From IMG/VR virus record IMGVR_UViG_2778261216_000004: a stretch of DNA of 37,627 nt; one strand, given 5' to 3'. This DNA is from a virus (Duplodnaviria; Heunggongvirae; Uroviricota; Caudoviricetes). Each line of letters begins with the position of its first letter. The first letter of the stretch is position 1. Positions 1,199 to 29,112 of this stretch are shown piece by piece. The notes beneath the pieces were generated by a model. That model had not been told where the DNA came from. It saw only the letters and a program-made list of their open reading frames with translations, and did not search any database. A program made the translations under genes and the position numbers.

Positions 1199-1228
1199 TA
1201 AGCCCGCAACATTGCGGGCTTTGTCTTA
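1199..1228. terminator. GC hairpin with T-rich tail at the prophage edge
   Basis: AGCCCGCAAcatTGCGGGCT followed by TTGTCTT on the plus strand, immediately after the methyltransferase stop. It would stop read-through from the host pdxB promoter into the prophage and may also end the com/methyltransferase transcript. Confidence 0.45.
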
Positions 1229-2017
1229 TGGTTCGATCGCCGTTTTGAGCCGTTGTGTTGCTACATCAAAATAATGATCACTGGTTTCTATACCAATAAA
1301 TTTGCGTCCTGCTTTCAGTGCTGCAACACCCGTTGTTCCCGATCCCATAAAAGGATCAAGGACTGTTCCACCACTATTCGCAGTCCTGACCAGTTCTGCC
1401 ATAAGTTCTTCTGGTTTTCCGGTCGGGTGCATTTTCTTTGATGGGATAACCGGGAACGTCATGCAGCCGTCGAACGGTCCCGAAGGCGATTTACCTAAAT
1501 GGCCTTTACTGCCCCAGACGATGTATTCGCACTGATGCCGGAAATACCCCGTATGGGGTGTTCGTGACCCCCTTCCTTTGTTCCACGCAATGATTCCACG
1601 CCATGTAAAACCGCTGGCCTGAAACGCATCGGTTAAAGCTGGCAGTTGTCGCCAGTCAGTAAATACCAGGGCATAACCGCCCGGCCTGACTGCGCGGTGT
1701 GCCTGTGCCATCCATAATTGTGTCCAGTAAGCCCACGAACGGGCATCCATGTTTTCACCCGCAAACCCATCAAAGCGATGAAGGTTCTCGCCGTTCAGAT
1801 ATTTTGCGTGGCTGCCCTGGTTGGTGCGTCCGGCCTTGTGTGTCGCGCCCGAACTGTAAGGCGGGTCAGTGATTAAGGCATCAATACTTTCTGGCTCAAT
1901 CAGCGGCAATATTTCCAGCGCATTCCCACGACAGAGCGTGGCATTGTCAGTCTGATAAACCTTAGTGTGTTCCGGTGTATGTGCTGGTTGGTGCTGGATT
2001 GCGATCCCCACGGTCAT
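1226..2017 (-). CDS. DNA N6-adenine (or N4-cytosine) methyltransferase, beta-class
   Basis: 263 aa with DPPY (motif IV) near the N-terminus and a DPFMGSGTTG (motif I) near the C-terminus, the order typical of N4/N6 MTase family proteins. Its 5' end overlaps the com-like ORF. Confidence 0.85.
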   Translation of the reverse strand: MTVGIAIQHQPAHTPEHTKVYQTDNATLCRGNALEILPLIEPESIDALITDPPYSSGATHKAGRTNQGSHAKYLNGENLHRFDGFAGENMDARSWAYWTQLWMAQAHRAVRPGGYALVFTDWRQLPALTDAFQASGFTWRGIIAWNKGRGSRTPHTGYFRHQCEYIVWGSKGHLGKSPSGPFDGCMTFPVIPSKKMHPTGKPEELMAELVRTANSGGTVLDPFMGSGTTGVAALKAGRKFIGIETSDHYFDVATQRLKTAIEP

Positions 2018-2159
2018 AACTCCTCATGTGTGTGGGGTGCTCAATGGCTCTCGTTATCTGGTTAAGTGTTTTGCAGCGCGGACATTTTATTTCAATGTAG
2101 TGAAATGAGGCGCGGGCAAGTAGTTTGTTGCAATTTTTGCATCGTACATTTTGCGTCAT
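1962..2159 (-). CDS. com: Com-like zinc-finger translational regulator
   Basis: 65 aa from an ATG with a GAGGTG ribosome-binding site. MTQNVRCKNCNKLL...IEIKCPRCK matches the Mu Com CxxC...CxxC motif (Mu Com: MKSIRCKNCNKLLF...IEIRCPRCK). It overlaps the downstream methyltransferase start as com overlaps mom in Mu. Confidence 0.75.
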   Translation of the reverse strand: MTQNVRCKNCNKLLARASFHYIEIKCPRCKTLNQITRAIEHPTHMRSYDRGDRNPAPTSTYTGTH

Positions 2160-2203
2160 TTGCGGCACCTCTTGTGTGGTTACTGCTGCCGATATGATAA
2201 CAA

Positions 2204-2394: not shown

Positions 2395-2535
2395 TTACTG
2401 CTTACACTGTAAGAACGCCGCAAACTCCGCTCCCCAGAAGCTCATCCGTATTTCACACAGCGAACCGTGCAGCATCCAGATGATGAGGATTACCGTCACG
2501 CAGAATGTGATGGCCGTAAGCGATTTTTGCGACAT
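2395..2535 (-). CDS. hok: Hok/Gef-family type I toxin (small membrane peptide), not in the ORF track
   Basis: 46-aa ORF MSQKSLTAITFCVTVILIIWMLHGSLCEIRMSFWGAEFAAFLQCKQ with an AAAGGAG ribosome-binding site. It has a hydrophobic N-terminus, the conserved SLCEIR motif and an AAF motif as in Hok/HokA. The flanking UTRs are rich in hairpins. Confidence 0.7.
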   Translation of the reverse strand: MSQKSLTAITFCVTVILIIWMLHGSLCEIRMSFWGAEFAAFLQCKQ

Positions 2536-2726
2536 GGCGCTTGCTCCTTTGTTGGAGAGGCGCTAACCTATCACTTGCTTAAGGTAGATATGTTAGGGCC
2601 TCGGTTAAACAGAAATGTTTTCCGGGGCCTTTCCACATCTGGCCTTCGGGTATTCCCTCCGACCATCAGTCGAAAGGCACCCGCGCGTAATCTATCGCTT
2701 TTTTGTTGCTCCGGCAATTCTGCCCA

Positions 2727-2987
2727 TTAATTCTGAGGTAAAGGCAAACTCATCTGATTGTTTCCCCTGTGTGAAGCTGGCAGCTCATGCCACGGGATAC
2801 CTTCTGAAGAGAGAGCGCCGGAGGCGTGTTTTGATGTGAATTTATGGAAAGCTTCCAGTGTTGAGAAGCATACGCCGCATTCCAGATTGTTACACTGGTA
2901 ATACTTTTGCCGCACGGTGTTTGAATCATTTTCAGGACGACTGGTGCGGATACGGGCAGATGCGCCACAAAGCGGACAACGAAACAT
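2727..2987 (-). CDS. ogr: Ogr/Delta-type zinc-finger late transcription activator
   Basis: MFRCPLCGASARIRTSR...YYQCNNLECGVCF matches P2 Ogr (MFHCPLC...RTSR...YHQCQNVNC). Strong AGGGAGG ribosome-binding site. Confidence 0.85.
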   Translation of the reverse strand: MFRCPLCGASARIRTSRPENDSNTVRQKYYQCNNLECGVCFSTLEAFHKFTSKHASGALSSEGIPWHELPASHRGNNQMSLPLPQN

Positions 2988-3245
2988 AGCGACCTCCCTT
3001 AACGTGGTGCTGCCACCATTCTAAGTTGCCCCAACTCAGATTCCAACAGCAACTCCGCTTTGAGCAAGTCACTGAAGTAGGCTTTGTCGTGGCGAATAAA
3101 TTACATGAGTATCTCAATGATGTCATTTGAGTAGGATTTTAATGTATAACAATAAGGCTTGTGTTAATCTTAAAGTTGAATTGTGGTTTATGAAAAAAAC
3201 AAATGCTGATTCTCAACGAAAATTTCACTGAAATAAGGGTTGTAA

Positions 3246-4304
3246 ATGACAAAAACTATATCGATTTTTAATAACAAAGGTGGTGTTGGTAAAACAACTA
3301 TAATTTGGAATCTTGCAGTATCGCTAGCAGATAAAGGAAAAAGTGTTTTATTAATAGACTTTGATCCCCAGTGTAATCTCTCAATTGCATGTATTGGTGA
3401 TGAGGAATTTTCAGAGTTATTGGAACCTTCAGATGATTTCCCTTTTGGAAAAACGGTTAAAGCATTTGCATTGCCTTACATACAACAAAATACTATAGGT
3501 GAAGTTTATACAACAGAACCTAAGACTAAGACAGATGCAGGCGTTTTGCATATTGTTCCTGGAGACTTTTGGCTTAATACATTTTCAGATATTTTAAATG
3601 TCGGCACTGATGTTATAAGTGGCGCAGGGTTATATCGTTTTATTTTGCCAGATTTGATAACAAAAAAAGCATCAGAGAAAAATGATGTTATTTATGATTA
3701 TGTCCTAATAGATTTACCTCCCTCATTCAATACGCTTGTTAGATCGTCATTGTACTGCTCGGACTATTTTTTAGTTCCTTGCACACCTGATTTATTCTCT
3801 TCATATTGTGTAGGGCTGATTGGTGAGATGTTGCCATCATTTATACGTGATTGGGAGCAGGGCAAGGAAAGATATCTATCAGGTAACCCACGAGATAATA
3901 TTATATCTCAGAAAGGGATGCCTAAATTTGGCGGTTGGATATTCAATGGTTTTGATACGAGAAAGCAAAATGATGTTAAACAAGAGGTTGGTGCAGATGC
4001 AGTTCATCACCGTTCAATAAGAAAAGCGATAGAGGAAAAAATGCTTCCTCAGCTTTCACAGATTTCATCTTACAACGCGGTTCCTAATTTTACTGATTAT
4101 GAACCAGTTGGAAAGATTGAGGACCTCAACGTTATGGCTCCTGATAGTATTATTCAAAATATACCTATTCGCTATTTGTCTCGAGTTAGGCCAACGAATG
4201 CTCTTCGTGGGCGGGGGCAATGGGCAGTTAATCAGGTAGAACTAATGAATGAGATGGCTGGTGAGTATGATCATTTAGCTGAACACATAATAAATAATTT
4301 TTAA
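3246..4304 (+). CDS. Orphan ParA/MinD-family ATPase with an uncharacterised ~150-aa C-terminal extension
   Basis: Deviant Walker A NNKGGVGKTT, the DFDPQCN motif and a Walker B-like YDYVLIDLPP. The gene and its flanks are visibly AT-rich compared with the prophage. No parB-like partner is adjacent. Confidence 0.8.
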   Translation: MTKTISIFNNKGGVGKTTIIWNLAVSLADKGKSVLLIDFDPQCNLSIACIGDEEFSELLEPSDDFPFGKTVKAFALPYIQQNTIGEVYTTEPKTKTDAGVLHIVPGDFWLNTFSDILNVGTDVISGAGLYRFILPDLITKKASEKNDVIYDYVLIDLPPSFNTLVRSSLYCSDYFLVPCTPDLFSSYCVGLIGEMLPSFIRDWEQGKERYLSGNPRDNIISQKGMPKFGGWIFNGFDTRKQNDVKQEVGADAVHHRSIRKAIEEKMLPQLSQISSYNAVPNFTDYEPVGKIEDLNVMAPDSIIQNIPIRYLSRVRPTNALRGRGQWAVNQVELMNEMAGEYDHLAEHIINNF

Positions 4305-4452
4305 CATGCAAAACAAAGTGTGCGCCTTTATAAGGTGCACATTGAGTTAATTTTCTTAATTTCTCCTAAAAAATGAAAGAACTATACATCCAATAAGTAC
4401 ACTCTGTTATTGGTAATATTTACTCATTTTTGATTTAATATCTACAAATCGC

Positions 4453-5553
4453 TCACTCTGTTTCCGCTATCCATTCCGGGATTTTTGCCTCAAGCTCAAG
4501 CTGCGTGGTAAAGCCGCTGTTATCAATGGTGTGCTCGGCTTTTGCAATGATCCAGTCCTGATTGTCGATGTCACTTTTGAAGCCTGTCACCGTGCCATGC
4601 ATTTCGGGGTAGAGTTCTGCGCGTCCACGTGCCAGCGTGATGGAGAATGATGCGGCTCTGCGTTGTAGCTGCTGCCACTTTGCCGCCGCTGCGCGTCTTG
4701 CTGCCTGTTCGTTCTGATAAGTTTTGCGTAACACAAACACGTTGCCTTCCGAACCTTCCATATAGTCACCTTCACGGCTGCTGCTTTTCTCTTTTTTCGG
4801 TTTGCGGCGTTTCACGCTGACTTTTTTCTTTTTCCCGTAATTAAGATCAAGCCAGTAAGCGCGTACCCCCGTATACGCTTCGCGGTCAGCAATGCGGAAC
4901 TGATGGCGATCGCCACTGCTGCGAGTGATGGCGAACGATGGCAACGGCTGGCCCTGTGCGTTCACGCCACCGCCTGGCATGATGAATAACAGATTACCGC
5001 TTTTTACTGTGGTGATTGCGCCCAGCATTTCCGCCATGCGCGTAAGGAAGGATATGTCGCTTTCTTCAGTCTGGTCAGCGTGGTCGATTTCAATATCCAT
5101 CAGCATTTCGCTGATTTGCGGTTTCAGACCATACCGATGAGCGATGGCGGATACCACACGCTCAACGGTCACATCATGCCAGGACACCTCACGTTTAACG
5201 TTAAATTCATCCCGAAAATCTGCGCTTCTGGCTGAAACAGTCAGCCTGTCCGGCGGTCCTTCGTGAGCGATTTCATCAACAATGTAAGTGCCTTTTTCTG
5301 TCAGCGGTTCTCCTTTCCAGCCCATGAGAACCGTCAGGCGCGCGCCCCGTGGCGGTAGCTGCAACTGACCATCCACATCATCCAGCGTGATGGTGAGCTG
5401 GTCCGCCTCAAATCCCCGGTTGTCGGTCAGTGACAGGCTCATCAGGCGCTCTGCCACGCCGGACAGCGTTTTCCCCTCCGCGAGAATATCAAAATCCGGC
5501 ATTTTTACGGGGTCTGTGCTCTGACTGAGCAATTGCATGGTGGTGTCGGTCAT
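4453..5553 (-). CDS. D: Tail protein D (late control gene D family)
   Basis: Matches P2 gpD motifs (LSLTDNRGFEADQL, REGDYMEGSEGNVF). Start set at the internal ATG with an AGGGAGGGA ribosome-binding site rather than the ORF-track start. Confidence 0.85.
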   Translation of the reverse strand: MTDTTMQLLSQSTDPVKMPDFDILAEGKTLSGVAERLMSLSLTDNRGFEADQLTITLDDVDGQLQLPPRGARLTVLMGWKGEPLTEKGTYIVDEIAHEGPPDRLTVSARSADFRDEFNVKREVSWHDVTVERVVSAIAHRYGLKPQISEMLMDIEIDHADQTEESDISFLTRMAEMLGAITTVKSGNLLFIMPGGGVNAQGQPLPSFAITRSSGDRHQFRIADREAYTGVRAYWLDLNYGKKKKVSVKRRKPKKEKSSSREGDYMEGSEGNVFVLRKTYQNEQAARRAAAAKWQQLQRRAASFSITLARGRAELYPEMHGTVTGFKSDIDNQDWIIAKAEHTIDNSGFTTQLELEAKIPEWIAETE

Positions 5554-5710
5554 CTGTTCCCTCCCTGTGCGGCATGGTCGCATGTGCGTGCGGAGTGGGT
5601 TACTGCTTTTTGTTGTCGCCGTGGCGGGAGAATAGCGCAGGGGTGAGATTACGCGCGTGGTGGGTGATGATTGTTGCTGAATCATTTAACGGATACAAGG
5701 GGCTGAAGCT

Positions 5711-6895
5711 ATGAGTGAAACTCGTTTTCATGGTGCCCGTGTTACGGAAAGTACCGACCTGGTAACAGCGATTAATGATGTTGATTCCAGTGTTATCGGT
5801 ATCGTGGCAACGGCGGATGATGCGGATGCGGAGCTGTTCCCGCTGAACAAGCCCACACTGCTGACCCGCGTCAATGACGTGCTGGGAAAATGCGGAACAA
5901 CGGGGACGCTTTATCGTGCGCTTAAGGCCATCGCAGACCAGGTGAGCACAAAGGTGATCGTCGTTCGCGTGGCTGAACACAAAGAAGAAGACGGAAAAAC
6001 GCAGGATCAACTGGTTATCGGTGGTTCTGAGAATGACGGCAGCTATACGGGGATGTATGCGCTGCTTGTTGCAGAGCAGGATGAAAGCATCGGATACCGT
6101 CCGCGTATTCTGGCCGCGCCGGAGCTGGACACGGAGGCGGTGACAAAATCCCTGTGCGTGATTGCGGGTAAACTGCGCGCGTTTGTCTATGCCTCATGTC
6201 ATGGCTGTGACACGATGGCTGATGCGATTACCTACCGCCAGAAATTCAACGAACGTGAGGTGATGCTCTTATGGCCGGACTTCATCGCCTACAACCCGAA
6301 AAGTGGCAAAAACGAAACGTTCCCCGCGCCTGCCTATGCGTGCGGCCTTCGTGCGTACATTGACCATGAGCAGGGATGGCACAAATCACTCTCCAACGTT
6401 CCGGTTAAGAATGTGCTGGGGATGTCGAGGCATGTGTTCTGGTCGTTGCAGGCCGAAGACAGTGATGCCAACAGCCTCAACAACAAAGAAATCACGACCA
6501 TTATTCGTCGCAACGGGTTCCGCTTCTGGGGCAACCGCACACCGGAAACGAACGCCTACATCTTTGAGGTGTACACCCGAACCGCACAGGTGCTGGCTGA
6601 TTCAATTGCGGAAGCGCAGTTTGAAACCATCGACAGTCCACTGACGCCTGCGAACGTGAAGGATGTTATCAGTGCCATCAGGGCAAAACTGGATTCGCTG
6701 GTTACTGCCGGGAAACTGATTGGCGCGGAGTGCTGGTATGACGTGGTGGATAACAGCACCACGAATTTACGTCAGGGGCGCGTGCGTATTCGCTACAAAT
6801 ATACGCCTGTTCCCCCGCTGGAAGACATGGAGCTTTACCAGTCGTTTACTGATGAATTCTTTGGTCCCGCATTTGCGGTGCTGGGAGGTGCCTGA
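5711..6895 (+). CDS. FI: Tail sheath protein FI
   Basis: 394 aa; N-terminal region (IGIVATADDADAELFPLNKP) resembles P2 FI. Confidence 0.9.
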   Translation: MSETRFHGARVTESTDLVTAINDVDSSVIGIVATADDADAELFPLNKPTLLTRVNDVLGKCGTTGTLYRALKAIADQVSTKVIVVRVAEHKEEDGKTQDQLVIGGSENDGSYTGMYALLVAEQDESIGYRPRILAAPELDTEAVTKSLCVIAGKLRAFVYASCHGCDTMADAITYRQKFNEREVMLLWPDFIAYNPKSGKNETFPAPAYACGLRAYIDHEQGWHKSLSNVPVKNVLGMSRHVFWSLQAEDSDANSLNNKEITTIIRRNGFRFWGNRTPETNAYIFEVYTRTAQVLADSIAEAQFETIDSPLTPANVKDVISAIRAKLDSLVTAGKLIGAECWYDVVDNSTTNLRQGRVRIRYKYTPVPPLEDMELYQSFTDEFFGPAFAVLGGA

Positions 6896-7407
6896 TGGCT
6901 GTACCAAAACATCTTCGCTTTTTTACGCTGTTTGTGGATGGTGAAAACGAAGTGGGTAAGGTGACGTCCGTCACTCTACCTAAGCTGACGCGCAAAACCG
7001 ACAGCTACCGGGGTGGTGGCATGATGGGTGCGGTAAGTATTGATCTCGGTCTGGACGACTCCGCGCTTGATGCGAGCTTTGTCATGGGGGGCGCAGTTCG
7101 TGAGCTGTTCCTTAAGTATGGCGGCACGATTGACGGCACGCTGCTGCGTTTTGCGGGTGAATACTACACCGATGCAGAAAGCGACCTGTATGAAGTCGAA
7201 ATGCGCGGACGTGTGACGGAAATTGATATGGGGGAAGCCAAACAGGGCGAAGCCACATCACACACTTACGCCATTAAAAACACCTACTACAAGCTGAGTG
7301 TTAACGATCGCCCGTTGTGGGAGATTGACCTGCTGAACTTCATTTACCGGAAGGACGGCAAGGACATTGTGCCCGATCGCATCCGTTCCGCGCTCGGGCT
7401 TGGCTGA
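6895..7407 (+). CDS. FII: Tail tube protein FII
   Basis: 170 aa, start overlaps the FI stop; P2 FII-like. Confidence 0.9.
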   Translation: MAVPKHLRFFTLFVDGENEVGKVTSVTLPKLTRKTDSYRGGGMMGAVSIDLGLDDSALDASFVMGGAVRELFLKYGGTIDGTLLRFAGEYYTDAESDLYEVEMRGRVTEIDMGEAKQGEATSHTYAIKNTYYKLSVNDRPLWEIDLLNFIYRKDGKDIVPDRIRSALGLG

Positions 7408-7461
7408 TAAGTAATATGCAGGCGGCGCAGTGCGTCGCCTCTGACTGAAAGGAATTTCCTG

Positions 7462-7827
7462 ATGAAAGAGACGAAAAACATCGATACCGAAAACACGGTA
7501 GTTGCTGACACTGTGAAAGAAACCAGTGAACGTGGTGTAAAACTTACCCAACCAATTGAGCGAGGCGGCGAAAAAATCACGTATGTGGAGATCACCGGGG
7601 CTATTGAGCAGGCTGGATCTCTGCGAGATTTGTCGCTGTCTGATGTGCTGAATCTGAAAGCGGAATCCATGTTTACGCTGCTGTCACGCGTGACATCACC
7701 GCGACTGGATGAAGTGACGATCAAAAAAATGGCATCCCGTGACTTTATTCAGTTATGTGTGGTTGCCGTAAATTTTTTGAGCGGTGCGGACTCTGGCGGG
7801 AAGAACGAACAGGCGACGGAAGCCTGA
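7462..7827 (+). CDS. E: Tail assembly chaperone E
   Basis: ORF between FII and T with an AAAGGAA ribosome-binding site. It contains the slippery site used to make E+E'. Confidence 0.8.
   Translation: MKETKNIDTENTVVADTVKETSERGVKLTQPIERGGEKITYVEITGAIEQAGSLRDLSLSDVLNLKAESMFTLLSRVTSPRLDEVTIKKMASRDFIQLCVVAVNFLSGADSGGKNEQATEA
7773..7779 (+). other. Programmed -1 ribosomal frameshift site T TTT TTG giving the E+E' fusion (7462..7991)
   Basis: The heptamer TTTTTTG lies in the E frame; the -1 frame continues as the overlapping 7755..7991 ORF. Same slippery sequence and arrangement as P2 E/E'. Confidence 0.7.
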
Positions 7828-7941
7828 TCACGGTTGTGTGCTTTGAGCACATAGAAGACTTTGTGGCAGATATTGCCGTTATTTTTAACTGGTCGCCCGC
7901 CGAAATCTTCATGATGACGCCCGGCGAAGTGGTTAGCTGGC

Positions 7942-10785
7942 GTGAGCGGGCGGCACTTCGCAGCGGGAATGCAGACAATGAAGACTCTTGATATCCGGGT
8001 CGCTTTCAGCGCCGTTGACAGGCTGACCCGACCTGCCGAAAACGCACGCCGCCTGATGGGGCAGTTTGGTGACTCCATCCAGCGAACGCAGGGGGCGATC
8101 AAAAATCTCGAGCGTCAGGCGCGATCATTTGAGCGCGCCCGCGACGCTGTCAGTAAAGCGGATGCGGGTATCGTGAAAGCACGACGCCAGCTTAACGCCC
8201 TTAATCAGTTACAACGCACGGGTACAGTGCTCAGCGAAAAACAACAAAAGCTGATGCAGCAGTTAAGCACCCGGCTTGAACGCCTGAATGAATCGCGCAC
8301 ACGGGAAATTCAGAAAATGCGGGAGCTTGGCGGAGAGCTGAAACGCCACGGCATTTCCCTGACAGGCAGCGATAACACCATCCAGCAGGCCATCAGACGC
8401 ACCGAACAGTACAACAACCAGCTTGAACGCGAACGGCAGGCGCTTGCGCGTGTAACGCGGGCGCGTGAGCGGTATTCGCGCGCGCAGGAAACCGCGGGAA
8501 AACTGAAAACAGGTGGTGCGCTGGCAACTGGTGCTGCAGCGGCGGGCGGCTATGCTGCCGGGCGTTTTTTGCAGCCTGCGATCGGGTTCGGCAAAGAGAT
8601 GTCCCGCGTTCAGGCACTGACGCGAATCGACAAAAACAGCCCGCAGTTTAAGGCGCTGCGTGAGCAGGCGTTAAAACTTGGTTCTGAAACACAGTTTACT
8701 GCGAGTGATGCCGCCAGTGGGCAGAGCTTTCTGGCAATGGCTGGTTTTACTCCGCAGGCCATTCAGGCCGCATTGCCCGGTGTTCTTAATATGGCGCTGG
8801 CAGGTGGCGTCGAACTCGGCGAGACGGCTGATATAGGCTCCAATATCCTCACACAGTTCAACCTGACAGCCGATCAAATGGACCGGGTTGGCGATACGCT
8901 GACAGCGGCATTCACCCGGACCAATACTGATTTACGCGCGCTGGGCGAAACCATGAAGTATACCGGTCCGGTTGCCGCAAAACTTGGTATCAGTCTTGAA
9001 GAAGCGGCAGCCATGGCCGGGATGCTTGCCAATAATGGTCTTCGTGGAAGCGATGCTGGTACGGCCATGCGCGCAAGTCTGTCCCGCCTTGCATCACCGC
9101 CAAAAGCTGCGGCTGATGCGCTGAAAGAGCTGGGGGTGTCAGTTGCTGACGCCAGAGGCAAAATGCGCCCGATGGAGGATGTGCTGCTTGATCTCTATAA
9201 GGCGACACAAAAATACGGACAGGTGGACCAGGTTTCCTTCTTCAAGGACATCGCCGGAGAAGAGGCGTTCGTTGGTTTGCAGACGCTTGTTGCGGCGGCT
9301 GGTTCAGGAGAGCTGCAAAAACTGACCAGAGAATTGCAGGGGGCAAGGGGAGAGGCCGATCGCGTTGCAAAAGTAATGGCCGATAATCTTGATGGGGACC
9401 TGAAAAATCTCGACAGCGCATGGGAAGGTCTTCGTATTCGCATCAGTGATCTGGTTGACGGTCCGCTGCGTTCTGTCACGCAGTGGCTCACGCGGGTGCT
9501 TGAAAAAATCACCTCGCTGGCGCAGGCCCATCCGGTACTGACGCGCCAGCTACTGATAGCAGGCGGTGCGTTGCTGGCAATGACTGCAACGGTTGGCTCG
9601 TTGTCGCTGGCTATTGGTGTGCTTGCTGGCCCGCTGGCAAAACTGCGTCTTGGTTTTTCTCTCCTGACCGGATCAATGAATGCTGTCAGGGTCCTGCCAG
9701 CACTATGGGGAATGGTGACGGGTTCCGTTTCTTTGCTGGGAGGTGCTATCGGGGCGCTGTTCAGTCCGGTCGGATTGATTGCTGCTGCGTTTGTGGCTGC
9801 GGCGGTTCTCATCTGGAAATACTGGGAACCCATTAAGGCGTTTTATGCCGGGGTGTTCAACGGGATTATGGAACGGCTGGCTCCGTTGCGCGAAACCTTT
9901 GAACGGTTTGGCCCTGTTTTTGACGCAATCGGAAGCGGGATCAGTCAGGTGTTTAACTGGTTTAAATCGCTGCTGTCACCGATGGAGTCCAGCAAGGAAA
10001 CGCTGGATAAATGTACCAGTGCTGGCGAGATATTCGGTAACGTTCTTGGCGGTGCGTTACAGCTTGTTCTGACACCTGCAAAAATGCTACTGGATACGCT
10101 GGCGTGGATACTTGAAAAACTTGGCGTCCTTCCGGATGAAGCGGAAAGGGCGCGCAAGAAAATCGAAGACGCACAGCGTGCGGCCATTCTTCAGGACAAG
10201 GTTGCCTTGCTTCAGGGGGACCTTGCGAAAATCAATCCGCCGAAGCCTGTGGAAAATGGCAATGGCACCGGGGGTGATAAACCCAAAGACAACAAACCAT
10301 TCACAGACAGCAATACCGGGACGCTACGCAGACTCAGCAAAATTGCTGATAACACAGGTAAGCTGGTTGATGAGACGAAAAAACGTATTGGCCCCGGCGA
10401 TATTGTCTTTAAGAACCTGCCCCGCGCACTTGCCGTTCGTGGGGAGTGGCAGGAGCGGAAGAGTGCGCAGGTCAGTAAGCCTGCTTCCGCAATCAACATC
10501 ACACCCGTGGTCCCGACTCCTCTGCCTCCGGCGCTGGTCCCTGTTGTTGCGGCCAGCTCCCGCCCGGTGGCGGAGGCCATACGATCGCCAGTGGCATCAG
10601 TTCCTGCAACTTCCCGTAACCGGGAGCCTGTTGTCTCCGGATTTGGCGGTGAAATTCATGTTCATCTGCATAACGTTGTTACGCAGAATCCCCGCGAACT
10701 GGCGAAACTGGTCGGTGAAATGGTCAGGGCAGAAATGGAACGGCGCGCCCGTGCCGGGCGTGGCAGTTTTTGCGATAAAGATTGA
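7942..10785 (+). CDS. T: Tail tape-measure protein T
   Basis: 947 aa, coiled-coil N-terminus, Gly/Ala-rich hydrophobic middle, position after E/E'. The exact start is uncertain (alternative ATGs at 7969 and 7978). Confidence 0.85.
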   Translation: MSGRHFAAGMQTMKTLDIRVAFSAVDRLTRPAENARRLMGQFGDSIQRTQGAIKNLERQARSFERARDAVSKADAGIVKARRQLNALNQLQRTGTVLSEKQQKLMQQLSTRLERLNESRTREIQKMRELGGELKRHGISLTGSDNTIQQAIRRTEQYNNQLERERQALARVTRARERYSRAQETAGKLKTGGALATGAAAAGGYAAGRFLQPAIGFGKEMSRVQALTRIDKNSPQFKALREQALKLGSETQFTASDAASGQSFLAMAGFTPQAIQAALPGVLNMALAGGVELGETADIGSNILTQFNLTADQMDRVGDTLTAAFTRTNTDLRALGETMKYTGPVAAKLGISLEEAAAMAGMLANNGLRGSDAGTAMRASLSRLASPPKAAADALKELGVSVADARGKMRPMEDVLLDLYKATQKYGQVDQVSFFKDIAGEEAFVGLQTLVAAAGSGELQKLTRELQGARGEADRVAKVMADNLDGDLKNLDSAWEGLRIRISDLVDGPLRSVTQWLTRVLEKITSLAQAHPVLTRQLLIAGGALLAMTATVGSLSLAIGVLAGPLAKLRLGFSLLTGSMNAVRVLPALWGMVTGSVSLLGGAIGALFSPVGLIAAAFVAAAVLIWKYWEPIKAFYAGVFNGIMERLAPLRETFERFGPVFDAIGSGISQVFNWFKSLLSPMESSKETLDKCTSAGEIFGNVLGGALQLVLTPAKMLLDTLAWILEKLGVLPDEAERARKKIEDAQRAAILQDKVALLQGDLAKINPPKPVENGNGTGGDKPKDNKPFTDSNTGTLRRLSKIADNTGKLVDETKKRIGPGDIVFKNLPRALAVRGEWQERKSAQVSKPASAINITPVVPTPLPPALVPVVAASSRPVAEAIRSPVASVPATSRNREPVVSGFGGEIHVHLHNVVTQNPRELAKLVGEMVRAEMERRARAGRGSFCDKD

Positions 10786-10791
10786 GGAGTC

Positions 10792-11286
10792 ATGGCCATG
10801 ATGATGATCTACGGCATGTTTGTTTTTGAGCTGCGCACATTGCCGCATCAGCAGTTACAGCAAAACAAAAGCTGGCGGCATGTGAAAAATGAACGCGTTA
10901 ACCGTTCAGCAAGCTGGCAGTATATCGGTGCAGGTGATGATCGCATTGTGCTTTCCGGCGTGCTTTATCCTGAAATTACAGGTGGCGAAGTGTCGCTTTC
11001 GTTGCTGACCACGCAGGCATATACAGGACGCCCCTGGCCTCTGATTGATGGTGTCGGGCAGATTTACGGCATGTATGTACTGACTGAAACGAATACGACC
11101 CGTTCCGAGTTTGATCGCTACGGTAAGGCGAAAAAGATAGAATTTTCACTGACTCTTGAACGCTGTGATGAGGATTTGCGGGAGCGCCTGCAATCCTCAT
11201 CGTTCAGCGATATGTTGTCCGGCTTCAAAGATAAGGTGACATCATCCCTTAATAGCGCGGCCAGCTCAGTTAAGGGGCTGCTCTGA
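10792..11286 (+). CDS. U: Tail protein U
   Basis: Matches P2 gpU (MMMVLGLFVF...WQYIG.GDD...LSGVLYPE). Confidence 0.85.
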   Translation: MAMMMIYGMFVFELRTLPHQQLQQNKSWRHVKNERVNRSASWQYIGAGDDRIVLSGVLYPEITGGEVSLSLLTTQAYTGRPWPLIDGVGQIYGMYVLTETNTTRSEFDRYGKAKKIEFSLTLERCDEDLRERLQSSSFSDMLSGFKDKVTSSLNSAASSVKGLL

Positions 11287-11442
11287 TTTAACGTATGTCG
11301 CCAATTTCCTGATGAAGGTGACTGGCGACTTGCTGTTGTATGTCCTTCTCAGAAAATTGTTTTTGAATAACAAATAACAGGATTTTATAATCTCTTAACC
11401 TTATAACATGTGTGGTCTGAAATAATAATTAAGGAGATTATC

Positions 11443-12015
11443 GTGCTGTCTTACTTAATGGCAATTCACTTTGTTTTATTTGGGGACTCTACTAATTTAA
11501 AAAACTTCTGGAAATATGAAGTAATTCGGCGGAAACGTATGGATATCTGGAGGCTTTTAAGAGAGAAAAAACAGCGTAACCGGAATTTCCTTTTCTGGTG
11601 GCGGTTGGCTAACGAAATGTATATTAATGGTAATAAATTACATAAGAAAGCAGCCAAAAAGTTAAACAGTAAAATAATTAACAAATTTGGTTGTGAAATT
11701 GGATTGGGCGCAAATATTGGAAAAGGGTTAACAATTCCCCATCATGCTGGAATTGTTGTTCATTTTGCTGTTGATGCTGGTGAAAATCTGGTGTTACGAC
11801 AGAATACTACCATTGGACAGATAGATGGTGACATGCCTGGTTCAAGAGTAAAAATTGGTAGTAACGTTGATATCGGAGCTAATTGTTGCATCATTGGATT
11901 ATCACGTAAAATTGGGGATAATGTAAAAATAGGTGCAATGTCTTTTATAAATAAAGATATACCATCGAACTGCACATATATAACTAAAAAGAGCGGTGTT
12001 GTATTGTATAAATAG
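11443..12015 (+). CDS. Hexapeptide-repeat (left-handed beta-helix) acyltransferase, accessory gene
   Basis: Repeats of the IG.N..IG type resembling WcaB/CysE-like acetyltransferases. GTG start with an AAGGAG ribosome-binding site. Visibly AT-rich. Sits at the position of P2 Z/fun. Confidence 0.7.
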   Translation: MLSYLMAIHFVLFGDSTNLKNFWKYEVIRRKRMDIWRLLREKKQRNRNFLFWWRLANEMYINGNKLHKKAAKKLNSKIINKFGCEIGLGANIGKGLTIPHHAGIVVHFAVDAGENLVLRQNTTIGQIDGDMPGSRVKIGSNVDIGANCCIIGLSRKIGDNVKIGAMSFINKDIPSNCTYITKKSGVVLYK

Positions 12016-12022
12016 AGTACAT

Positions 12023-12058
12023 AAAGCCATCTATATTTCAATCGATGGCTTTTTCTCT
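12023..12058 (+). terminator. Hairpin terminator between the convergent acyltransferase and tfa genes
   Basis: AAAGCCATC-(12 nt loop)-GATGGCTTT followed by TTTCTCTTT. Confidence 0.5.
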
Positions 12059-12637
12059 TTATTGTGGGGCGACTGGCCACTCAACATCCGCTGCTACCGC
12101 TGTATTAACACGATTCAACAATACCCGGTATGTCTTCCATGCAGCCAGTAACGATGCCTCTTCCTCCGTTGCAATATCCAAATCTACGGCATCCTGAAGT
12201 GGCGCAATATGCTCGCTGGCTACCTGCATCAGGCTGTTTTTTGTTTCTTCCGCCTCCCTTATCCGAAACAGTTTTTCTGCTTCTGCATCTTTCACCCAGG
12301 ATGTGCCGTTCCACTTCTGATACTCTCCATACGGCGACAACCAGGTAACATTTTCCGGTAATGGACCGAGTTCAGAAATAAATAACGAGTCCCCTGATGC
12401 CACGTCATAAACCGTTTTACCCCGATGGTCTTCAACGAGATGCCACGATGCCTCATCACTGTTGAAAACGGCCACGAAGCCAGCCGGAATATCTGGCGGG
12501 GCAATATCGGTACTGTTTGCAGGCAGACCTGTATGAGGCGGAATGTATGCGTCACCTTCACCAATAAATTCATTAGTTCCGGCCAGCAGATTATAAATTT
12601 TTATGGTCCGTGGTTGTTCACTCATTCTGAAATCCAT
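12059..12637 (-). CDS. G: Tail fibre assembly protein (G-like chaperone)
   Basis: Tfa-like N-terminus ([24 protein letters not shown]). Start set at an internal ATG 3 codons into the ORF. Confidence 0.8.
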
Positions 12638-12645
12638 GTTCACCT

Positions 12646-13548
12646 CTACTTAATATCAGAGACAGAATATTGTTTATTGAGCGTATGGGTGTGAGCACCA
12701 ATAACGATGCTACTTCTGTGGCTATGTGCGCCAGAGGTGACATTACCTACGGGATTTTCTGGATTAATCCGGTGTATATGCGAATCAGGGCGAAACCGGT
12801 TATTAGCCTGATGTTGTATCAGTACATCATCAGCCTGATGTTCAGGGTTAATACAGACCTGCCCGGAACGTGAGCAATACGTCCGATAATCGCCGCATCC
12901 AATATATTTAGCATCCGCATAACGGCAAACAGAATTACCCGGACAGTATGCATATGTGCCAAATACTGCCGACTGGCGGGATTGTGCGTATTCCCAGTTA
13001 ATTGATTCTGTTTTTTTATTAAAGTTATCCCAGGCCTGCTTCATCTGGCGGGCAACACTTTCAAACGGTACCTGACCACATCCAGCCCCCATCGCAGGGA
13101 ATACCACCGTCTTTATTTTCCTGTCTGTCGTTGCGTTTTTATTGTGCTGAAAGATGGCAAGCAGAGCGGCCCAGGTTGCGTTATATACAGCGTCTGTTCC
13201 GTCAATTGTCAGCGGAACACGCATTGTTGGCGCATGTACCAGCCAGGGGTGATGATTATGCCCCGTTTCAATAACAAACGCAGATCCTACAGGCTGCTCG
13301 CCTAGATATTCACGAAGAATATGATTCTGAACGCGGGACTGTAACTGAGTACCGAAGAATGCGGTAATGGCGGCATCAACACCGCCATCCATCAGGCCGA
13401 AACTATTTGCCGCACTTACCATACAGTCAAATTCTCTGATTGTTTCAAATGGCTTTCCGACAATATTCACATTATCTGCGTTTGCAAATACCCGCTTAAA
13501 TGCTTCAGCCATTTCTGTTACTGGTGCAGAAAGAATGAGCGTAATCAT
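12646..13548 (-). CDS. Macro-domain protein with a Cys-rich, His-x-His C-terminal tail
   Basis: [19 protein letters not shown] and [10 protein letters not shown] fit the macrodomain NAAN...GGGV.GAI signature. Its ATG overlaps the H stop (ATGA) and has a GAGG ribosome-binding site. C-terminal [18 protein letters not shown] resembles the H tip repeats. Confidence 0.7.
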
Positions 13549-27294: not shown

Positions 27295-27630
27295 TTAATG
27301 CGTCCTGTGCTTTCTGGAATTTAAGTGCATAGTCAGTGGCGATTTTTCCAGTTCAGCGATTCGGTTGTCTTTGGTTTCCAGCCAATCAAGTAGCGCCAAT
27401 ACTTCAGGATCCCCGACATCCAACACTGTTACGCGTGATTTTTCATAATGTTCGTCAGCAAGAGTTCGGCCAATTTTGAAATCTCCATCATCACCATAAC
27501 CGGAGCAGGCATAAACAACCTGTGCTCCAGATATTCGCTGAATTGACATTTCCTCGCCGCAAATAGGGCATTTCGGTACTGGCACAGGTGAATAACGTTC
27601 ACGTAATGCCTGATAGTTGATTTCGCTCAT
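27295..27630 (-). CDS. Hypothetical protein with a CxxC motif, third gene of the parM/parR-like operon
   Basis: 111 aa, AAGGAG ribosome-binding site, CPICGEEM motif. No family assigned. Confidence 0.5.
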   Translation of the reverse strand: MSEINYQALRERYSPVPVPKCPICGEEMSIQRISGAQVVYACSGYGDDGDFKIGRTLADEHYEKSRVTVLDVGDPEVLALLDWLETKDNRIAELEKSPLTMHLNSRKHRTH

Positions 27631-27693
27631 TAAGTCGTTCTCCTTGTTTATGTTCTGAGGTGGAGAGCAGGGCGAACTCGCCCTGATGTTGTG

Positions 27694-28005
27694 TTATTCA
27701 GGAAATAACGCCCGGATATTTCCGGCCATCTGACTGGTTATCTGTGCGGTTGATACTGGCTGTGATGCGGGGCGTTCTGTCCTGGTTTGTGTCACTGATA
27801 ACGCTTCATCACCAGCCCATGCAGCCAGTCGATAAGCCTCTGCCGGATTCATTTTCAGAAGTGCCAGCCCGGCCAGAAAAGCCACGCGTTGGCCGCTTTT
27901 GCGGGCTTCTGGTGTAAGGCTGTCCAGCCAGGCGCATGCTTCTCCTTCGTTCTTGACGGCGGTGGGCTTCAGATAGAAACTTATCCGTCTGGTTGGAGTC
28001 GTCAT
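27694..28005 (-). CDS. parR: ParR-like DNA-binding adaptor
   Basis: RRISFYLKP...ARKSGQRVAFLAGLALL resembles R1 ParR (RRTIAFKLNP...RAALTAGLAL). AGGAG ribosome-binding site; the ATG lies 4 nt after the parM-like stop. Confidence 0.55.
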   Translation of the reverse strand: MTTPTRRISFYLKPTAVKNEGEACAWLDSLTPEARKSGQRVAFLAGLALLKMNPAEAYRLAAWAGDEALSVTQTRTERPASQPVSTAQITSQMAGNIRALFPE

Positions 28006-28009
28006 TGGT

Positions 28010-28969: not shown

Positions 28970-29006
28970 GTCGCTTTTCCTTATGTTGATTAATTAATCG
29001 GTTACA

Positions 29007-29112
29007 GGATTTTTAAATCCCGCTTTTGCCTGTTTTGTGCGCGCTTCATATATCGCGGCACGTTTTTTGCTCATTTACGGGATTTGTGAATCCCGTTTCT
29101 GTCTGTTTTTTG
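29007..29112. repeat. Two ~33-bp direct repeats, each a hairpin with a T-rich tail, spanning the A stop and the parM-like upstream region
   Basis: GGATTTTTAAATCCCGCTTTTGCCTGTTTTGTG (29007-29039) and GGGATTTGTGAATCCCGTTTCTGTCTGTTTTTTG (29079-29112). Confidence 0.45.

What the first reader, a model, noticed from the sequence alone, without database searches (positions are those of the whole stretch)
2988..4452. AT-rich orphan ParA-like ATPase with an unknown C-terminal domain between D and ogr
Seen in sequence: a single plus-strand gene in a visibly AT-rich island, opposite in orientation to D and ogr, with the ParA/MinD deviant Walker A (KGGVGKTT), the DPQ motif and a Walker B-like motif, then about 150 residues with no recognisable signature. 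No ParB-like partner or centromere-like repeats are adjacent. Inference: the composition suggests recent horizontal acquisition; a ParA-fold NTPase without a partner could be a single-gene exclusion or defence factor, or a regulator. D and ogr are adjacent in P2, so this is not a classical cargo site.
Basis: partly seen in the sequence, partly recalled or inferred. Interest (0 to 1): 0.6.

Follow-up and report, generated by a model that had tools for sequence, protein, structure and literature searches.

The report
Solo ParA-like ATPase prophage cargo gene
A P2-like prophage of E. coli carries, in a swap-in slot between two of its core genes, a self-contained foreign gene for a partner-less ParA-type ATPase that also rides on other phages and plasmids and most likely protects its carrier against rival phages or plasmids, although this has not been tested.

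Summary
One + strand gene (3246-4304, 352 aa) sits in a 36% GC island (~3030-4450) between ogr and D. It has an intact deviant Walker A, DFDPQ and Walker B, and no ParB or centromere repeats.

Two points need correcting:
- The ogr-D junction is a recurrent single-gene cargo slot in this lineage, with at least 9 alternative cargos (PIN, HEPN-like, SEC-C, DUF3800, unknowns) or none.

The gene travels as a cassette with its own leader and terminator. Homologues 60-93% identical occur singly in the classic P2 gpA-gpQ hotspot, in Mu-like, siphoviral and PM2-like prophages, and in integrative elements. Plasmid copies are 57-59% identical; on IncX1 plasmids they lie beside a genuine parFG. No neighbour is conserved.

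The closest functional precedent is GiPD474, a solo prophage ParA-like ATPase that blocks T4 and FelixO1. It is a full-length remote homologue (hhalign 98.7%, about 26% identity) but a different family.

Best reading: an untested anti-phage or anti-element exclusion ATPase, a new variant of a recently recognised kind. Mechanism unknown.

The parts
2727..2987 (-). ogr (Ogr/Delta zinc-finger late activator); conserved left flank of the cargo slot
   Evidence: Pfam Ogr_Delta 5.1e-14; RefSeq annotation of an identical record
3018..3046 (-). sigma-70-like promoter match (TTGGAA-17-TAGAAT) upstream of ogr. It lies in the conserved left flank; cargo junctions fall just beyond it, at 3011-3065 depending on the variant.
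   Evidence: consensus scan; flank boundaries. The promoter role is inferred.
3030..4450 (.). AT-rich inserted cassette relative to an empty ogr-D site
   Evidence: blastn against empty locus L031: homology ends at 3029 and resumes at 4451; GC profile
3101..3245 (+). Upstream leader and presumed promoter region that travels with the gene, including the Shine-Dalgarno AAGGG at 3235-3239. No canonical + strand sigma-70 match was found.
   Evidence: DNA homology to the Erwinia locus starts at 3101; alignment; promoter scan
3246..4304 (+). Solo ParA/MinD-class ATPase gene, 352 aa, pI 5.0
3276..3299 (+). Deviant Walker A KGGVGKTT (signature Lys11, catalytic Lys16)
   Evidence: translation; invariant in 46 homologues
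3357..3371 (+). DFDPQ (Walker A'/switch I aspartates D38 and D40)
3702..3725 (+). Walker B region VLIDLPPS (D156)
3951..3962 (+). FDTR (F236, D237, R239 invariant). From memory it resembles the D-x-R motif of Soj/ParA whose arginine is needed for non-specific DNA binding.
   Evidence: invariant columns; the equivalence to Soj R189 is recalled knowledge, not tested here
4116..4181 (+). Family-specific C-terminal motif IEDLNVMAPDSIIQNIPIRYLS, counterpart of the ParA 'IP..v.l.EA...G.P' strand-helix
   Evidence: alignments A1 and A3; the C-terminal half alone finds only 35 representative clusters in 1.84 billion proteins
4317..4343 (+). Terminator-like hairpin followed by a T-rich tail; it travels with the gene
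   Evidence: scan; conserved position with a differently paired stem in Erwinia
4453..5553 (-). Gene D (tail/baseplate hub); conserved right flank of the cargo slot
   Evidence: Pfam Phage_GPD 7.8e-18; RefSeq annotation

Best explanation
The island is a self-contained, horizontally mobile one-gene cassette (leader, gene, terminator). It sits in a recurrent cargo slot between gene D and the ogr promoter of an E. coli P2-like prophage. The product is a catalytically intact ParA/MinD-class ATPase built as one extended ParA fold.

The family has no ParB-type partner anywhere. It is carried singly by at least four unrelated kinds of prophage, by integrative elements and by plasmids.

The most likely role is accessory rather than partitioning. 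I read it as a stand-alone exclusion or defence protein that protects the carrier element and its host against competing phages, and possibly plasmids. This follows the example of the solo prophage ParA-like ATPase GiPD474.

Inferred mechanism, not shown: ATP-driven sandwich dimerisation through the signature lysine. The dimer would then engage DNA non-specifically (invariant D-x-R motif), or a conserved phage or host protein, through the family-specific and highly conserved C-terminal surface. This would block the invader's DNA replication, positioning or packaging. No nuclease or other effector domain is present.
For: What it is (shown):
- ORF, motifs and AT-rich composition.
- Insert boundaries against an empty site.
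- A cassette with its own leader and terminator, shared with Erwinia and Providencia.

Cargo slot:
- ParA cargo is in 15 genomes.
- The same flanks elsewhere hold PIN_12, PIN_4, SEC-C, DUF3800, a weak HEPN-like protein, three unknowns, or nothing. In a spread sample, 26 of 42 sites were empty and 15 of 42 occupied.

Solo status:
- No conserved neighbour in 17 loci and no recurrent Pfam family in 66 neighbours.
- No repeat arrays.
- On IncX1 plasmids the 57% homologue lies beside a genuine parF/parG pair, so it is not their partition ATPase (PMC3332091 lists it as orf15, a conserved hypothetical).

Defence-type contexts:
- Classic P2 gpA-gpQ hotspot in Providencia.
- Between gemA and mor in V. 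cholerae Mu-like prophages.
- Beside the integrase in a Clostridium prophage.
- Next to type I hsdR in Erwinia.
- Next to a retron-type RT, AbiEii, an SNF2/ZorD-like protein and hok on an Aeromonas plasmid.
- Cargo of a 4.9-kb mobilisable plasmid.
- About 9 of 113 neighbours hit PADLOC models strongly, including type IIG R-M, LmuA, PD-T4-6, AbiEii, RT_VI and ZorD/DpdE.

Precedent:
- GiPD474 is a solo AAA_31 ParA-like protein in the Gifsy-1 immunity region. It gives about 5-log protection against T4 and Alf5 and restricts FelixO1 (PMC12724215).
- RemA is the ATPase of the RemAIN anticodon-nuclease defence system (PMC13043305) and is only weakly similar to plasmid ParA (PMC9879122).
- The A1 profile aligns to GiPD474 over 298 columns (hhalign 98.7%, E 3.8e-16).
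Against: - No experiment exists on this family.
- Identity to GiPD474 is only 22-26%. The BLAST score of 57.8 bits is similar to the scores against ordinary Soj/ParA. The analogy therefore rests on architecture and lifestyle, not on family membership.
- PADLOC 2.0 has no model for the family; only residues 3-40 match PDC-M28B.
- None of the alternative ogr-D cargos is a known defence gene either.
- Conservation is unusually strong: 60-64% identity between the E. coli, Clostridium and Nostoc copies, and about 105 invariant columns. This is atypical of fast-evolving immune sensors and could point to a housekeeping-like role for mobile elements.
- Near-fixed presence in one IncX1 plasmid sublineage, 161 versus 179 records, next to oriT/ddp3, would also fit a plasmid-benefit or anti-defence role.
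- No + strand promoter was identified.
- No close homologue exists in 50,697 sequenced phage records.
- The neighbour enrichment has no matched control.
Confidence: 0.5

Rival explanations
1. A maintenance or positioning factor for the mobile element itself. The ParA-like ATPase would tether or distribute the excised or replicating element, or its replication or transfer machinery, on the nucleoid without a dedicated ParB.
For: - The ParA fold is complete, with intact ATPase motifs and the D-x-R motif.
- The family is restricted to mobile elements, including plasmids and an ICE-like element with T4SS genes.
- It is nearly fixed in one IncX1 sublineage, beside the rep/oriT region.
- Purifying selection is very strong.
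- Some cyanobacterial members carry an N-terminal HTH, as type Ia ParAs do.
Against: - It is present in only 15 of roughly 1200-1500 otherwise similar prophages and is replaceable by PIN, HEPN-like and other cargo, so it is not needed by the phage.
- It occurs in Mu-like prophages, which do not exist as plasmids (the Mu biology is prior knowledge).
- IncX1 plasmids already carry parFG.
- It is carried by a 4.9-kb mobilisable plasmid; such small plasmids are normally multicopy and need no active partition (the copy-number point is prior knowledge).
- There is no centromere-like repeat and no partner.
Confidence: 0.17
2. An anti-defence or establishment factor. It would be expressed early after entry of the plasmid or phage and neutralise a host function, for example a host ParA/SMC-type or DNA-targeting immunity system, or replication control via DnaA as Soj does.
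For: - The IncX1 copy lies next to ddp3 and the replicon-associated oriT (PMC3402527 places ddp3 by the second oriT). That this is a possible leading region is my inference.
- In Mu-like prophages it sits within, and is co-oriented with, the early region between gemA and mor.
- High conservation would fit a conserved host target.
Against: - In the E. coli and Clostridium prophages the gene opposes its flanking phage genes. In the E. coli cassette it also has its own terminator, a pattern typical of morons expressed in lysogeny.
- The alternative cargos at the same slot are nuclease-like (PIN, HEPN-like), which look like defence effectors.
- The only functional data on solo ParA-like prophage proteins show defence (PMC12724215).
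Confidence: 0.1
3. A lysogenic-conversion or regulatory factor acting on a host process. Examples would be cell division (MinD/MipZ-like), flagellar or cellulose machinery (FlhG/FleN- or BcsQ-like), or transcription.
For: - Related phage ORFs (SE1 gp23, a Pf1 ORF) were annotated long ago as 'putative regulatory protein'.
- The gene is solo, as many positioning ATPases are.
Against: - All specific NCBIfam models score far below cut-off, for example minD_bact 37 versus 212.9 bits and BcsQ 46.9 versus 157.85.
- No MinD-type basic amphipathic C-terminal helix is visible; the tail is acidic (...GEYDHLAEHIINNF).
- The host range spans Firmicutes, Cyanobacteria and Proteobacteria, which share few such machineries.
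- The old annotations are untested.
Confidence: 0.1
4. An inert passenger or decaying remnant with no current function.
For: The carrying prophage has a frameshifted gpA in RefSeq, so it may be defective. The gene is rare in E. coli.
Against: The ORF is full length and intact. Every catalytic residue is retained, and identity is 60-93% across phyla over the whole length. The same allele is seen on hundreds of contigs.
Confidence: 0.03

Closest known systems
GiPD474 (STM474_RS13505, WP_000368620.1), Gifsy-1 prophage of S. Typhimurium 4/74 (PMC12724215)
   Same: - Solo ParA-like protein of about 355 aa with an AAA_31 domain and an NNKGGVGKT Walker A.
- Encoded alone in a prophage accessory region.
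- Colinear over nearly the full length (hhalign 98.7%, 298 columns).
- Shares the PGD, D..PSF, PCT.D and D.N motifs.
- Shown experimentally to block T4, Alf5 and FelixO1.
   Different: - Only 22-26% identical, far below the 70% used by its authors.
- It lies in the lambdoid immunity region rather than a P2 late-gene junction.
- It has a 17-residue N-terminal extension.
- Its best structural matches are ordinary ParA/Soj rather than 3pg5 (paper Table S3).
- Its mechanism is also unknown.
RemA of the RemAIN system (Gifsy-1, S. Typhimurium 14028; PMC13043305, PMC9879122)
   Same: An ATPase only weakly similar to plasmid ParA, encoded in a prophage accessory (immunity) region, with no ParB, and involved in anti-phage defence.
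   Different: RemA works with a HEPN anticodon nuclease (RemN) and an immunity protein (RemI) encoded beside it. The window gene has no neighbouring effector in any of 17 loci.
IncX1 plasmid 'orf15' / WP_012291478-type 354-aa ParA family protein (pECTm80, pE001; PMC3332091)
   Same: Same family: 57-59% identity over 99% of the length. It is also solo, and uncharacterised in the literature read.
   Different: It is carried on plasmids beside parFG, a resolvase and ddp3/rep. It is nearly fixed in one clonal plasmid sublineage.
DIP2308 of Corynebacterium diphtheriae (PDB 3pg5) and pNOB8 ParA (5k5z, 5u1j)
   Different: About 23% identity. DIP2308 has no known function. pNOB8 ParA works with ParB and AspA in a three-component partition system (prior knowledge, not tested here).
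Salmonella P22-like phage SE1/ST160 gp23 and the Pf1/Pf4 prophage ParA-like ORF
   Same: Nearest relatives in sequenced phages: 28% identity over 84% of the length and 25.6% over 88%. SE1 gp23 is 357 aa and is encoded with no ParB in the immunity region, downstream of the CI repressor.
   Different: Different families with no functional data. The old label 'regulatory protein' is untested.
Canonical type I ParA / Soj / MinD
   Same: Same fold, deviant Walker A, and Walker A' and B residues.
   Different: - No ParB, parS, MinC or MinE.
- About 100 extra residues as insertions and a family-specific C-terminal half.
- Scores far below every NCBIfam cut-off.

Membership tests
ParA/MinD (deviant Walker A, SIMIBI-class) ATPase superfamily | Deviant Walker A KGGxGK[ST] with the signature N-terminal lysine | tested here: met
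   KGGVGKTT at residues 11-18; K11, G12, G13, V14, G15, K16 and T17 are invariant in 46 homologues
ParA/MinD (deviant Walker A, SIMIBI-class) ATPase superfamily | Walker A'/switch I aspartates and Walker B aspartate | tested here: met
   D38, D40 and D156 are invariant
ParA/MinD (deviant Walker A, SIMIBI-class) ATPase superfamily | ParA-type alpha/beta fold over the whole chain | tested here: met
Type I (ParABS) partition ATPase | Adjacent gene for a centromere-binding partner (ParB, ParG or similar) | tested here: not met
   No such gene in the island or its flanks; no conserved neighbour in 17 family loci; no ParB_N among 66 neighbours
Type I (ParABS) partition ATPase | Centromere-like repeat array next to the operon | tested here: not met
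   Only short two-copy matches at chance level in 2950-4480
Type I (ParABS) partition ATPase | Curated family score (NCBIfam ParA_partition NF041546) | tested here: not met
   72.7 bits against a cut-off of 180
Type I (ParABS) partition ATPase | Non-specific DNA binding and partner-stimulated ATPase activity | not testable with these tools
   Only the invariant D237-x-R239 motif is seen; biochemistry is needed
MinD | Curated family score, a C-terminal amphipathic membrane-targeting helix, and minC/minE neighbours | tested here: not met
   minD_bact 37 bits against 212.9; acidic C-terminus ...EYDHLAEHIINNF; no min genes nearby
GiPD474-type solo prophage defence ATPase | Single ParA-like gene in a prophage accessory locus with no partner | tested here: met
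GiPD474-type solo prophage defence ATPase | Sequence membership (the authors used at least 70% identity and 70% coverage) | tested here: not met
   26% identity over 255 aa by BLASTP. Only remote full-length homology is found (hhalign 98.7%). The GiPD474 sequence was recovered from IMG/VR using the paper's primer arms.
GiPD474-type solo prophage defence ATPase | Reduces plating of phages when expressed alone | not testable with these tools
   Requires cloning and plaque assays
RemAIN | ParA-like RemA encoded with the RemI immunity protein and the RemN HEPN nuclease | tested here: not met
   The island holds no other gene, and no conserved neighbour exists
PADLOC candidate system PDC-M28 (component B) | Full-length match to the PDC-M28B model | tested here: not met
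   Only residues 3-40 (the P-loop) match, E 6.6e-08
P2-like prophage accessory-gene hotspot | Conserved core genes flanking variable, mutually exclusive cargo across many genomes | tested here: met
   Flanks are 93-97% identical while the interior is ParA, PIN_12, PIN_4, SEC-C, DUF3800, HEPN-like, unknowns or empty

The most novel reading that the evidence does not exclude
This would be a pan-element, single-protein immune or exclusion system in which a ParA-fold positioning ATPase is itself both sensor and effector, with no nuclease, toxin or partner. It would stop invading phages or plasmids by mis-positioning, sequestering or blocking replication or segregation of their DNA, for instance by engaging the invader's ParB-like or replication proteins. 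If so, 'positioning-ATPase-based exclusion' would be a mechanistic class of defence shared by P2-like, Mu-like, siphoviral and PM2-like prophages, integrative elements and IncX1 plasmids. The ogr-D slot would then be an unexplored reservoir of at least eight further single-gene systems.
Probability: 0.2. Interest if true: 0.8.

Novelty: new variant of a known kind. Interest (0 to 1): 0.55.

Why it matters
Solo ParA-like ATPases were shown to be prophage defence genes only in 2025 (GiPD474), and how they work is unknown. This family is distinct from GiPD474. It is unusually conserved, at 60-64% identity between E. coli, Clostridium and cyanobacterial copies. It is also spread over very different mobile elements, which makes it a good second handle on the mechanism.

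It includes an uncharacterised gene of a clinically widespread IncX1 resistance-plasmid sublineage, so any phenotype would also bear on plasmid biology.

The work further shows that the ogr-D junction of a P2-like lineage found in roughly a quarter of complete E. coli genomes is a one-gene cargo slot. None of its contents (PIN, HEPN-like, SEC-C, DUF3800, unknowns) is in PADLOC 2.0. That gives a short, directly testable list of candidate new defence genes.

Tried and rejected
- **Partition system: rejected.** No ParB, no repeats and no conserved neighbour. ParM/ParR elsewhere in the prophage is lineage backbone and independent of this cargo.
- **Known defence family: no real match.** PADLOC gave only a P-loop hit. 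A text search of the metagenomic-selection paper found no ParA/MinD mention. A literature search for 'ParA-like ATPase' plus 'phage defen' found nothing. One literature search ('RemAIN') was wasted on the English word.
- **Close homologue in sequenced phages: none** above 60% identity in 50,697 records.
- **Ogr-dependent late promoter (TGT-N12-ACA) in the island: none**. A + strand sigma-70 promoter upstream was also not found by the consensus scan.
- **Structured RNA in the island: none.** Only a sok-like RNA lies outside it.
- **SE1 gp23 as a possible GiPD474: rejected.** Its Walker A sits at residues 11-17, not 29-34. The true GiPD474 sequence was then recovered through the paper's knockout primer arms.
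- **Metal cluster via invariant C43, C179 and C188: considered unlikely.** These cysteines are not kept in 3pg5, SE1 gp23 or GiPD474.
Full report
**Setting**

The window begins in the E. coli chromosomal gene flk and runs through a P2-like prophage inserted between flk and pdxB. It is 100% identical over the stretches compared (window 2560-5700 and 27650-29000) to strains from bovine faeces, such as OkiPb01714.

From the flk end the order is:
- a DNA methyltransferase with a Com-like zinc ribbon
- hok/sok
- ogr (2727-2987, -)
- the finding
- D (4453-5553, -)
- an FI-FII-E-T-U tail block on the + strand, then the remaining late genes

**Observation**

The ogr-D interval contains one substantial ORF, 3246-4304 on the + strand. 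It encodes 352 aa and is preceded by AAGGG six bases before the ATG.

GC falls to 0.31-0.39 between 3000 and 4500, against about 0.53 on both sides. The gene has GC 0.364 and GC3 0.256, versus 0.534 and 0.586 for D.

KGGVGKTT (residues 11-18), DFDPQ (38-42) and VLIDLPPS (D156) are present and invariant in 46 homologues. Pfam AAA_31 covers residues 2-189 (8.7e-30), and nothing in Pfam covers the rest. Every NCBIfam model scores far below its cut-off; ParA_partition gives 72.7 bits against 180. PHROG_164 'ParA-like partition protein' matches residues 1-350.

No repeat array, tRNA-like feature or Rfam hit lies in the island. A terminator-like hairpin follows the stop codon at 4317-4343. The description is therefore correct.

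**The C-terminal 'domain'**

An AlphaFold2 model built on 46 homologues has pTM 0.86 and mean pLDDT 79. It shows one continuous alpha/beta fold.

- McdA, pNOB8 ParA, MinD and FleN follow

The extra ~100 residues are insertions and a long helix (183-213). The conserved stretch IEDLNVMAPDSIIQNIPIRYL occupies the place of the usual C-terminal ParA strand-helix motif.

Searched alone against 1.84 billion representatives, residues 190-352 find only 35 clusters. All are family members or fragments, and none shows a different architecture. So there is no separate C-terminal domain. It is the family-specific second half of the ParA fold.

**The site is a cargo slot**

Among 5426 complete E. coli genomes, about 1200-1500 carry the same ogr and D flanks. 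Only 15 carry this gene.

The same junction elsewhere holds one of several alternatives:
- a PIN_12 protein
- a PIN_4 protein
- a SEC-C/YecA-family protein
- a DUF3800 protein
- a protein with a weak HEPN_RiboL-PSP match
- three proteins with no Pfam hit
- an IS element
- nothing, in which case ogr and D are 42 bp apart

In an evenly spread sample, 26 of 42 two-flank sites were empty and 15 were occupied. None of the alternative cargos matches PADLOC 2.0 beyond a trivial SEC-C hit.

Against the empty site, the insert here is about 3030-4450. Junctions in other variants fall at 3011-3065 and 4432-4455, between the D stop codon and a promoter-like element for ogr at 3046-3018.

[quoted passage not shown] The last probably includes this slot. 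None of the papers read mentions ogr or ParA.

**The gene is a mobile, solo cassette**

DNA homology to the Erwinia copy (93% protein identity) starts 145 bp upstream of the ATG and ends 67 bp downstream. It includes the hairpin, which keeps its pairing with different stem bases. Homology to the Providencia copy (88%) covers 15 bp upstream and the same 67 bp downstream.

The gene's GC is below that of its flanks in seven of the eight hosts examined; the exception is the already AT-rich Clostridium.

Homologues 60-93% identical and of the same length occur in Enterobacterales, Vibrio, Pseudomonas, Hahella, Desulfocicer, Clostridium and cyanobacteria. Within 90% identity they occur in Yersinia, Klebsiella, Pectobacterium, Pantoea and Xenorhabdus, always annotated only as ParA/AAA/CobQ.

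Their contexts are:
- a Providencia P2-like prophage at the classic gpA-gpQ (old/tin) hotspot
- V. cholerae Mu-like prophages between gemA and mor
- a Clostridium pasteurianum siphoviral prophage beside the integrase
- the end of a PM2-like element in V. alginolyticus
- a Pseudomonas integrative element with T4SS genes
- next to type I hsdR in Erwinia
- near an integrase in Nostoc

Only about nine true members (at least 43% identity) appear among the genome scan's kept hits.

All-against-all comparison of 331 ORFs within 3.5 kb of 17 family members found no neighbour shared by more than two loci. No Pfam family recurs in more than 2 of 66 neighbours, and ParB_N is absent.

**Plasmid relatives**

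188 plasmid records encode a full-length homologue at 57-59% identity.
- In IncX1 plasmids it lies immediately beside a genuine ParF-type ParA plus ParG and a resolvase, close to ddp3 and rep. The plasmid's partition function is thus already provided. The literature lists the gene only as 'orf15, conserved hypothetical' (PMC3332091).
- It is nearly fixed in one clonal IncX1 sublineage: 161 records carry it, against 179 with that rep/ddp3 backbone.
- It is also the main cargo of a 4.9-kb mobilisable plasmid.
- On an Aeromonas salmonicida conjugative plasmid it sits among a reverse transcriptase, AbiEii, an SNF2 protein and hok.

Of 113 neighbours from 14 loci outside recognisable prophages, about nine match PADLOC models strongly. 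These include type IIG R-M, LmuA, PD-T4-6, AbiEii, RT_VI, ZorD/DpdE, PDC-S02 and mad3. This fits a defence-island association, but there is no matched control.

**Functional precedent**

Two Salmonella Gifsy-1 systems use ATPases related to ParA:
- RemAIN combines the RemA ATPase with the RemI immunity protein and the RemN HEPN anticodon nuclease (PMC13043305, PMC9879122). RemA is only weakly similar to plasmid ParA (PMC9879122).
- GiPD474 is a single 361-aa AAA_31 protein. Alone, in E. coli, it lowers T4 and Alf5 plating by about 5 logs, and it restricts FelixO1 (PMC12724215).

I recovered the GiPD474 sequence from IMG/VR with the paper's knockout primer arm. The ORF has the reported length of 361 aa (1086 bp with its stop codon, as in the paper's coordinates), Walker A at residues 29-34, and termini matching both primer arms.

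The window protein is 26% identical to it over 255 residues. The family profile aligns to it colinearly over 298 columns (hhalign 98.7%, E 3.8e-16). Shared motifs extend to the C-terminal D.N...P. The raw score is no higher than against ordinary Soj, so this is not the same family. It is a second, distinct lineage of solo ParA-like proteins on mobile elements.

The nearest relatives in sequenced phages are P22-like SE1/ST160 gp23, which lies in the immunity region (28% identity), and a Pf1 ORF (25.6%). No phage record holds a homologue above 60% identity.

**Interpretation**

Shown:
- It is an intact, strongly constrained ParA-class ATPase.
- It is carried as a one-gene cassette.
- It is horizontally mobile among very different elements.
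- It never has a partner.
- It sits in a slot whose alternative occupants look like solo nuclease-type defence genes.

Inferred: it is an exclusion or defence factor. It would work through ATP-dependent dimerisation and binding to DNA (invariant D237-x-R239, recalled to correspond to the DNA-binding arginine of Soj) or to a conserved target through its family-specific surface.

Points that temper this:
- No experiment exists on the family.
- Conservation is unusually high for an immune protein.
- Fixation in an IncX1 sublineage near oriT would also fit a plasmid-benefit or anti-defence role.
- No identifiable + strand promoter or Ogr-type late promoter element was found.

I put defence or exclusion at about 0.5, an element maintenance or positioning role at about 0.17, anti-defence or establishment at about 0.1, host modulation at about 0.1, and inert at about 0.03.

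**Verdict**

The finding is real and correctly described, apart from the supposed extra domain and the status of the site. It is a new variant of a kind recognised only recently, the solo ParA-like ATPases of prophages. Its function is untested and its mechanism unknown. Interest is moderate, raised somewhat by the breadth and conservation of the family and by the set of uncharacterised cargos at the same slot.

Noticed in passing
window 2988-4452 equivalent in loci L002, L024-L030: The ogr-D junction of this P2-like lineage holds at least eight other mutually exclusive single-gene cargos: PIN_12 356 aa, PIN_4 500 aa, SEC-C/YecA 379 aa, DUF3800 389 aa, weak HEPN_RiboL-PSP 340 aa, and unknowns of 221, 355 and 465 aa. 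Apart from a marginal SEC-C-motif hit (E about 3e-05), none matches PADLOC 2.0. They are candidate new solo defence genes.
   Followed up: partly
window 27295-28969 (-): A type II partition module, ParM (StbA_N/ParM_N, 319 aa) plus a ParR-like Plasmid_stab_B protein (114 aa), with an Ead/Ea22-like ORF, sits in the classic gpA-gpQ hotspot of an integrated P2-like prophage. It is present in 1307 of 5426 E. coli genomes, so it is a backbone feature of the lineage. Its purpose in an integrated prophage is unexplained.
   Followed up: partly
window 5711-11286 (+) versus 4453-5553 (-) and 12059 onward (-): The FI-FII-E-E'-T-U tail block is inverted relative to D, ogr and the other late genes. P2 has them all in one direction (prior knowledge). 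The same arrangement is seen in L002, so it is lineage-wide.
   Followed up: no
window 2395-2682 (-): A hok/gef-family toxin ORF (46 aa, 2395-2535) with a sok-like antisense RNA (2547-2682; Rfam RF01794, 49.7 bits, below the gathering score of 59, E 1.5e-9) lies between ogr and the prophage end.
   Followed up: no
window 1226-2168 (-): A Com-like zinc-ribbon protein (Zn_ribbon_Com) overlaps the start of an N6/N4 DNA methyltransferase at the extreme prophage end next to flk. This is a Mu com/mom-like layout, but with a methylase.
   Followed up: no
window 11410-13548: At the Z/fun-equivalent position there is a hexapeptide-repeat (serine O-acetyltransferase-like) gene (11410-12015, +). A 300-aa macro-domain protein (12646-13548, -) lies between the tail-fibre gene and the tail-fibre assembly gene.
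   Followed up: no
window about 29071-31869 (-): The gpA replication endonuclease is annotated as frameshifted in the RefSeq record that matches this window, so the prophage may be replication-defective.
   Followed up: no
homologues P0085, P0088, P0100, P0118 (alignment A1): Several cyanobacterial and metagenomic family members (410-466 aa) carry an N-terminal extension of about 60 residues that looks like an excisionase/MerR-type helix-turn-helix (…IAKLAGVS.AAVGNWR.R…FP.P…). This recalls the N-terminal HTH of type Ia ParA proteins.
   Followed up: no
L114, L116 (IncX1 plasmids); L113; L115: A 57-59% identical homologue is the uncharacterised 'orf15' of one IncX1 resistance-plasmid sublineage, beside parFG and ddp3. 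It is also carried by a 4.9-kb mobilisable plasmid, and by Aeromonas plasmids next to an RT, AbiEii, an SNF2 protein and hok.
   Followed up: partly
protein P0124 (6458 aa, metagenomic): A giant repetitive protein gave 26 weak matches to residues 285-340 of the query (21% identity). Inspection shows a K/L/E/S-rich repeat, and I judged it a statistical artefact.
   Followed up: yes
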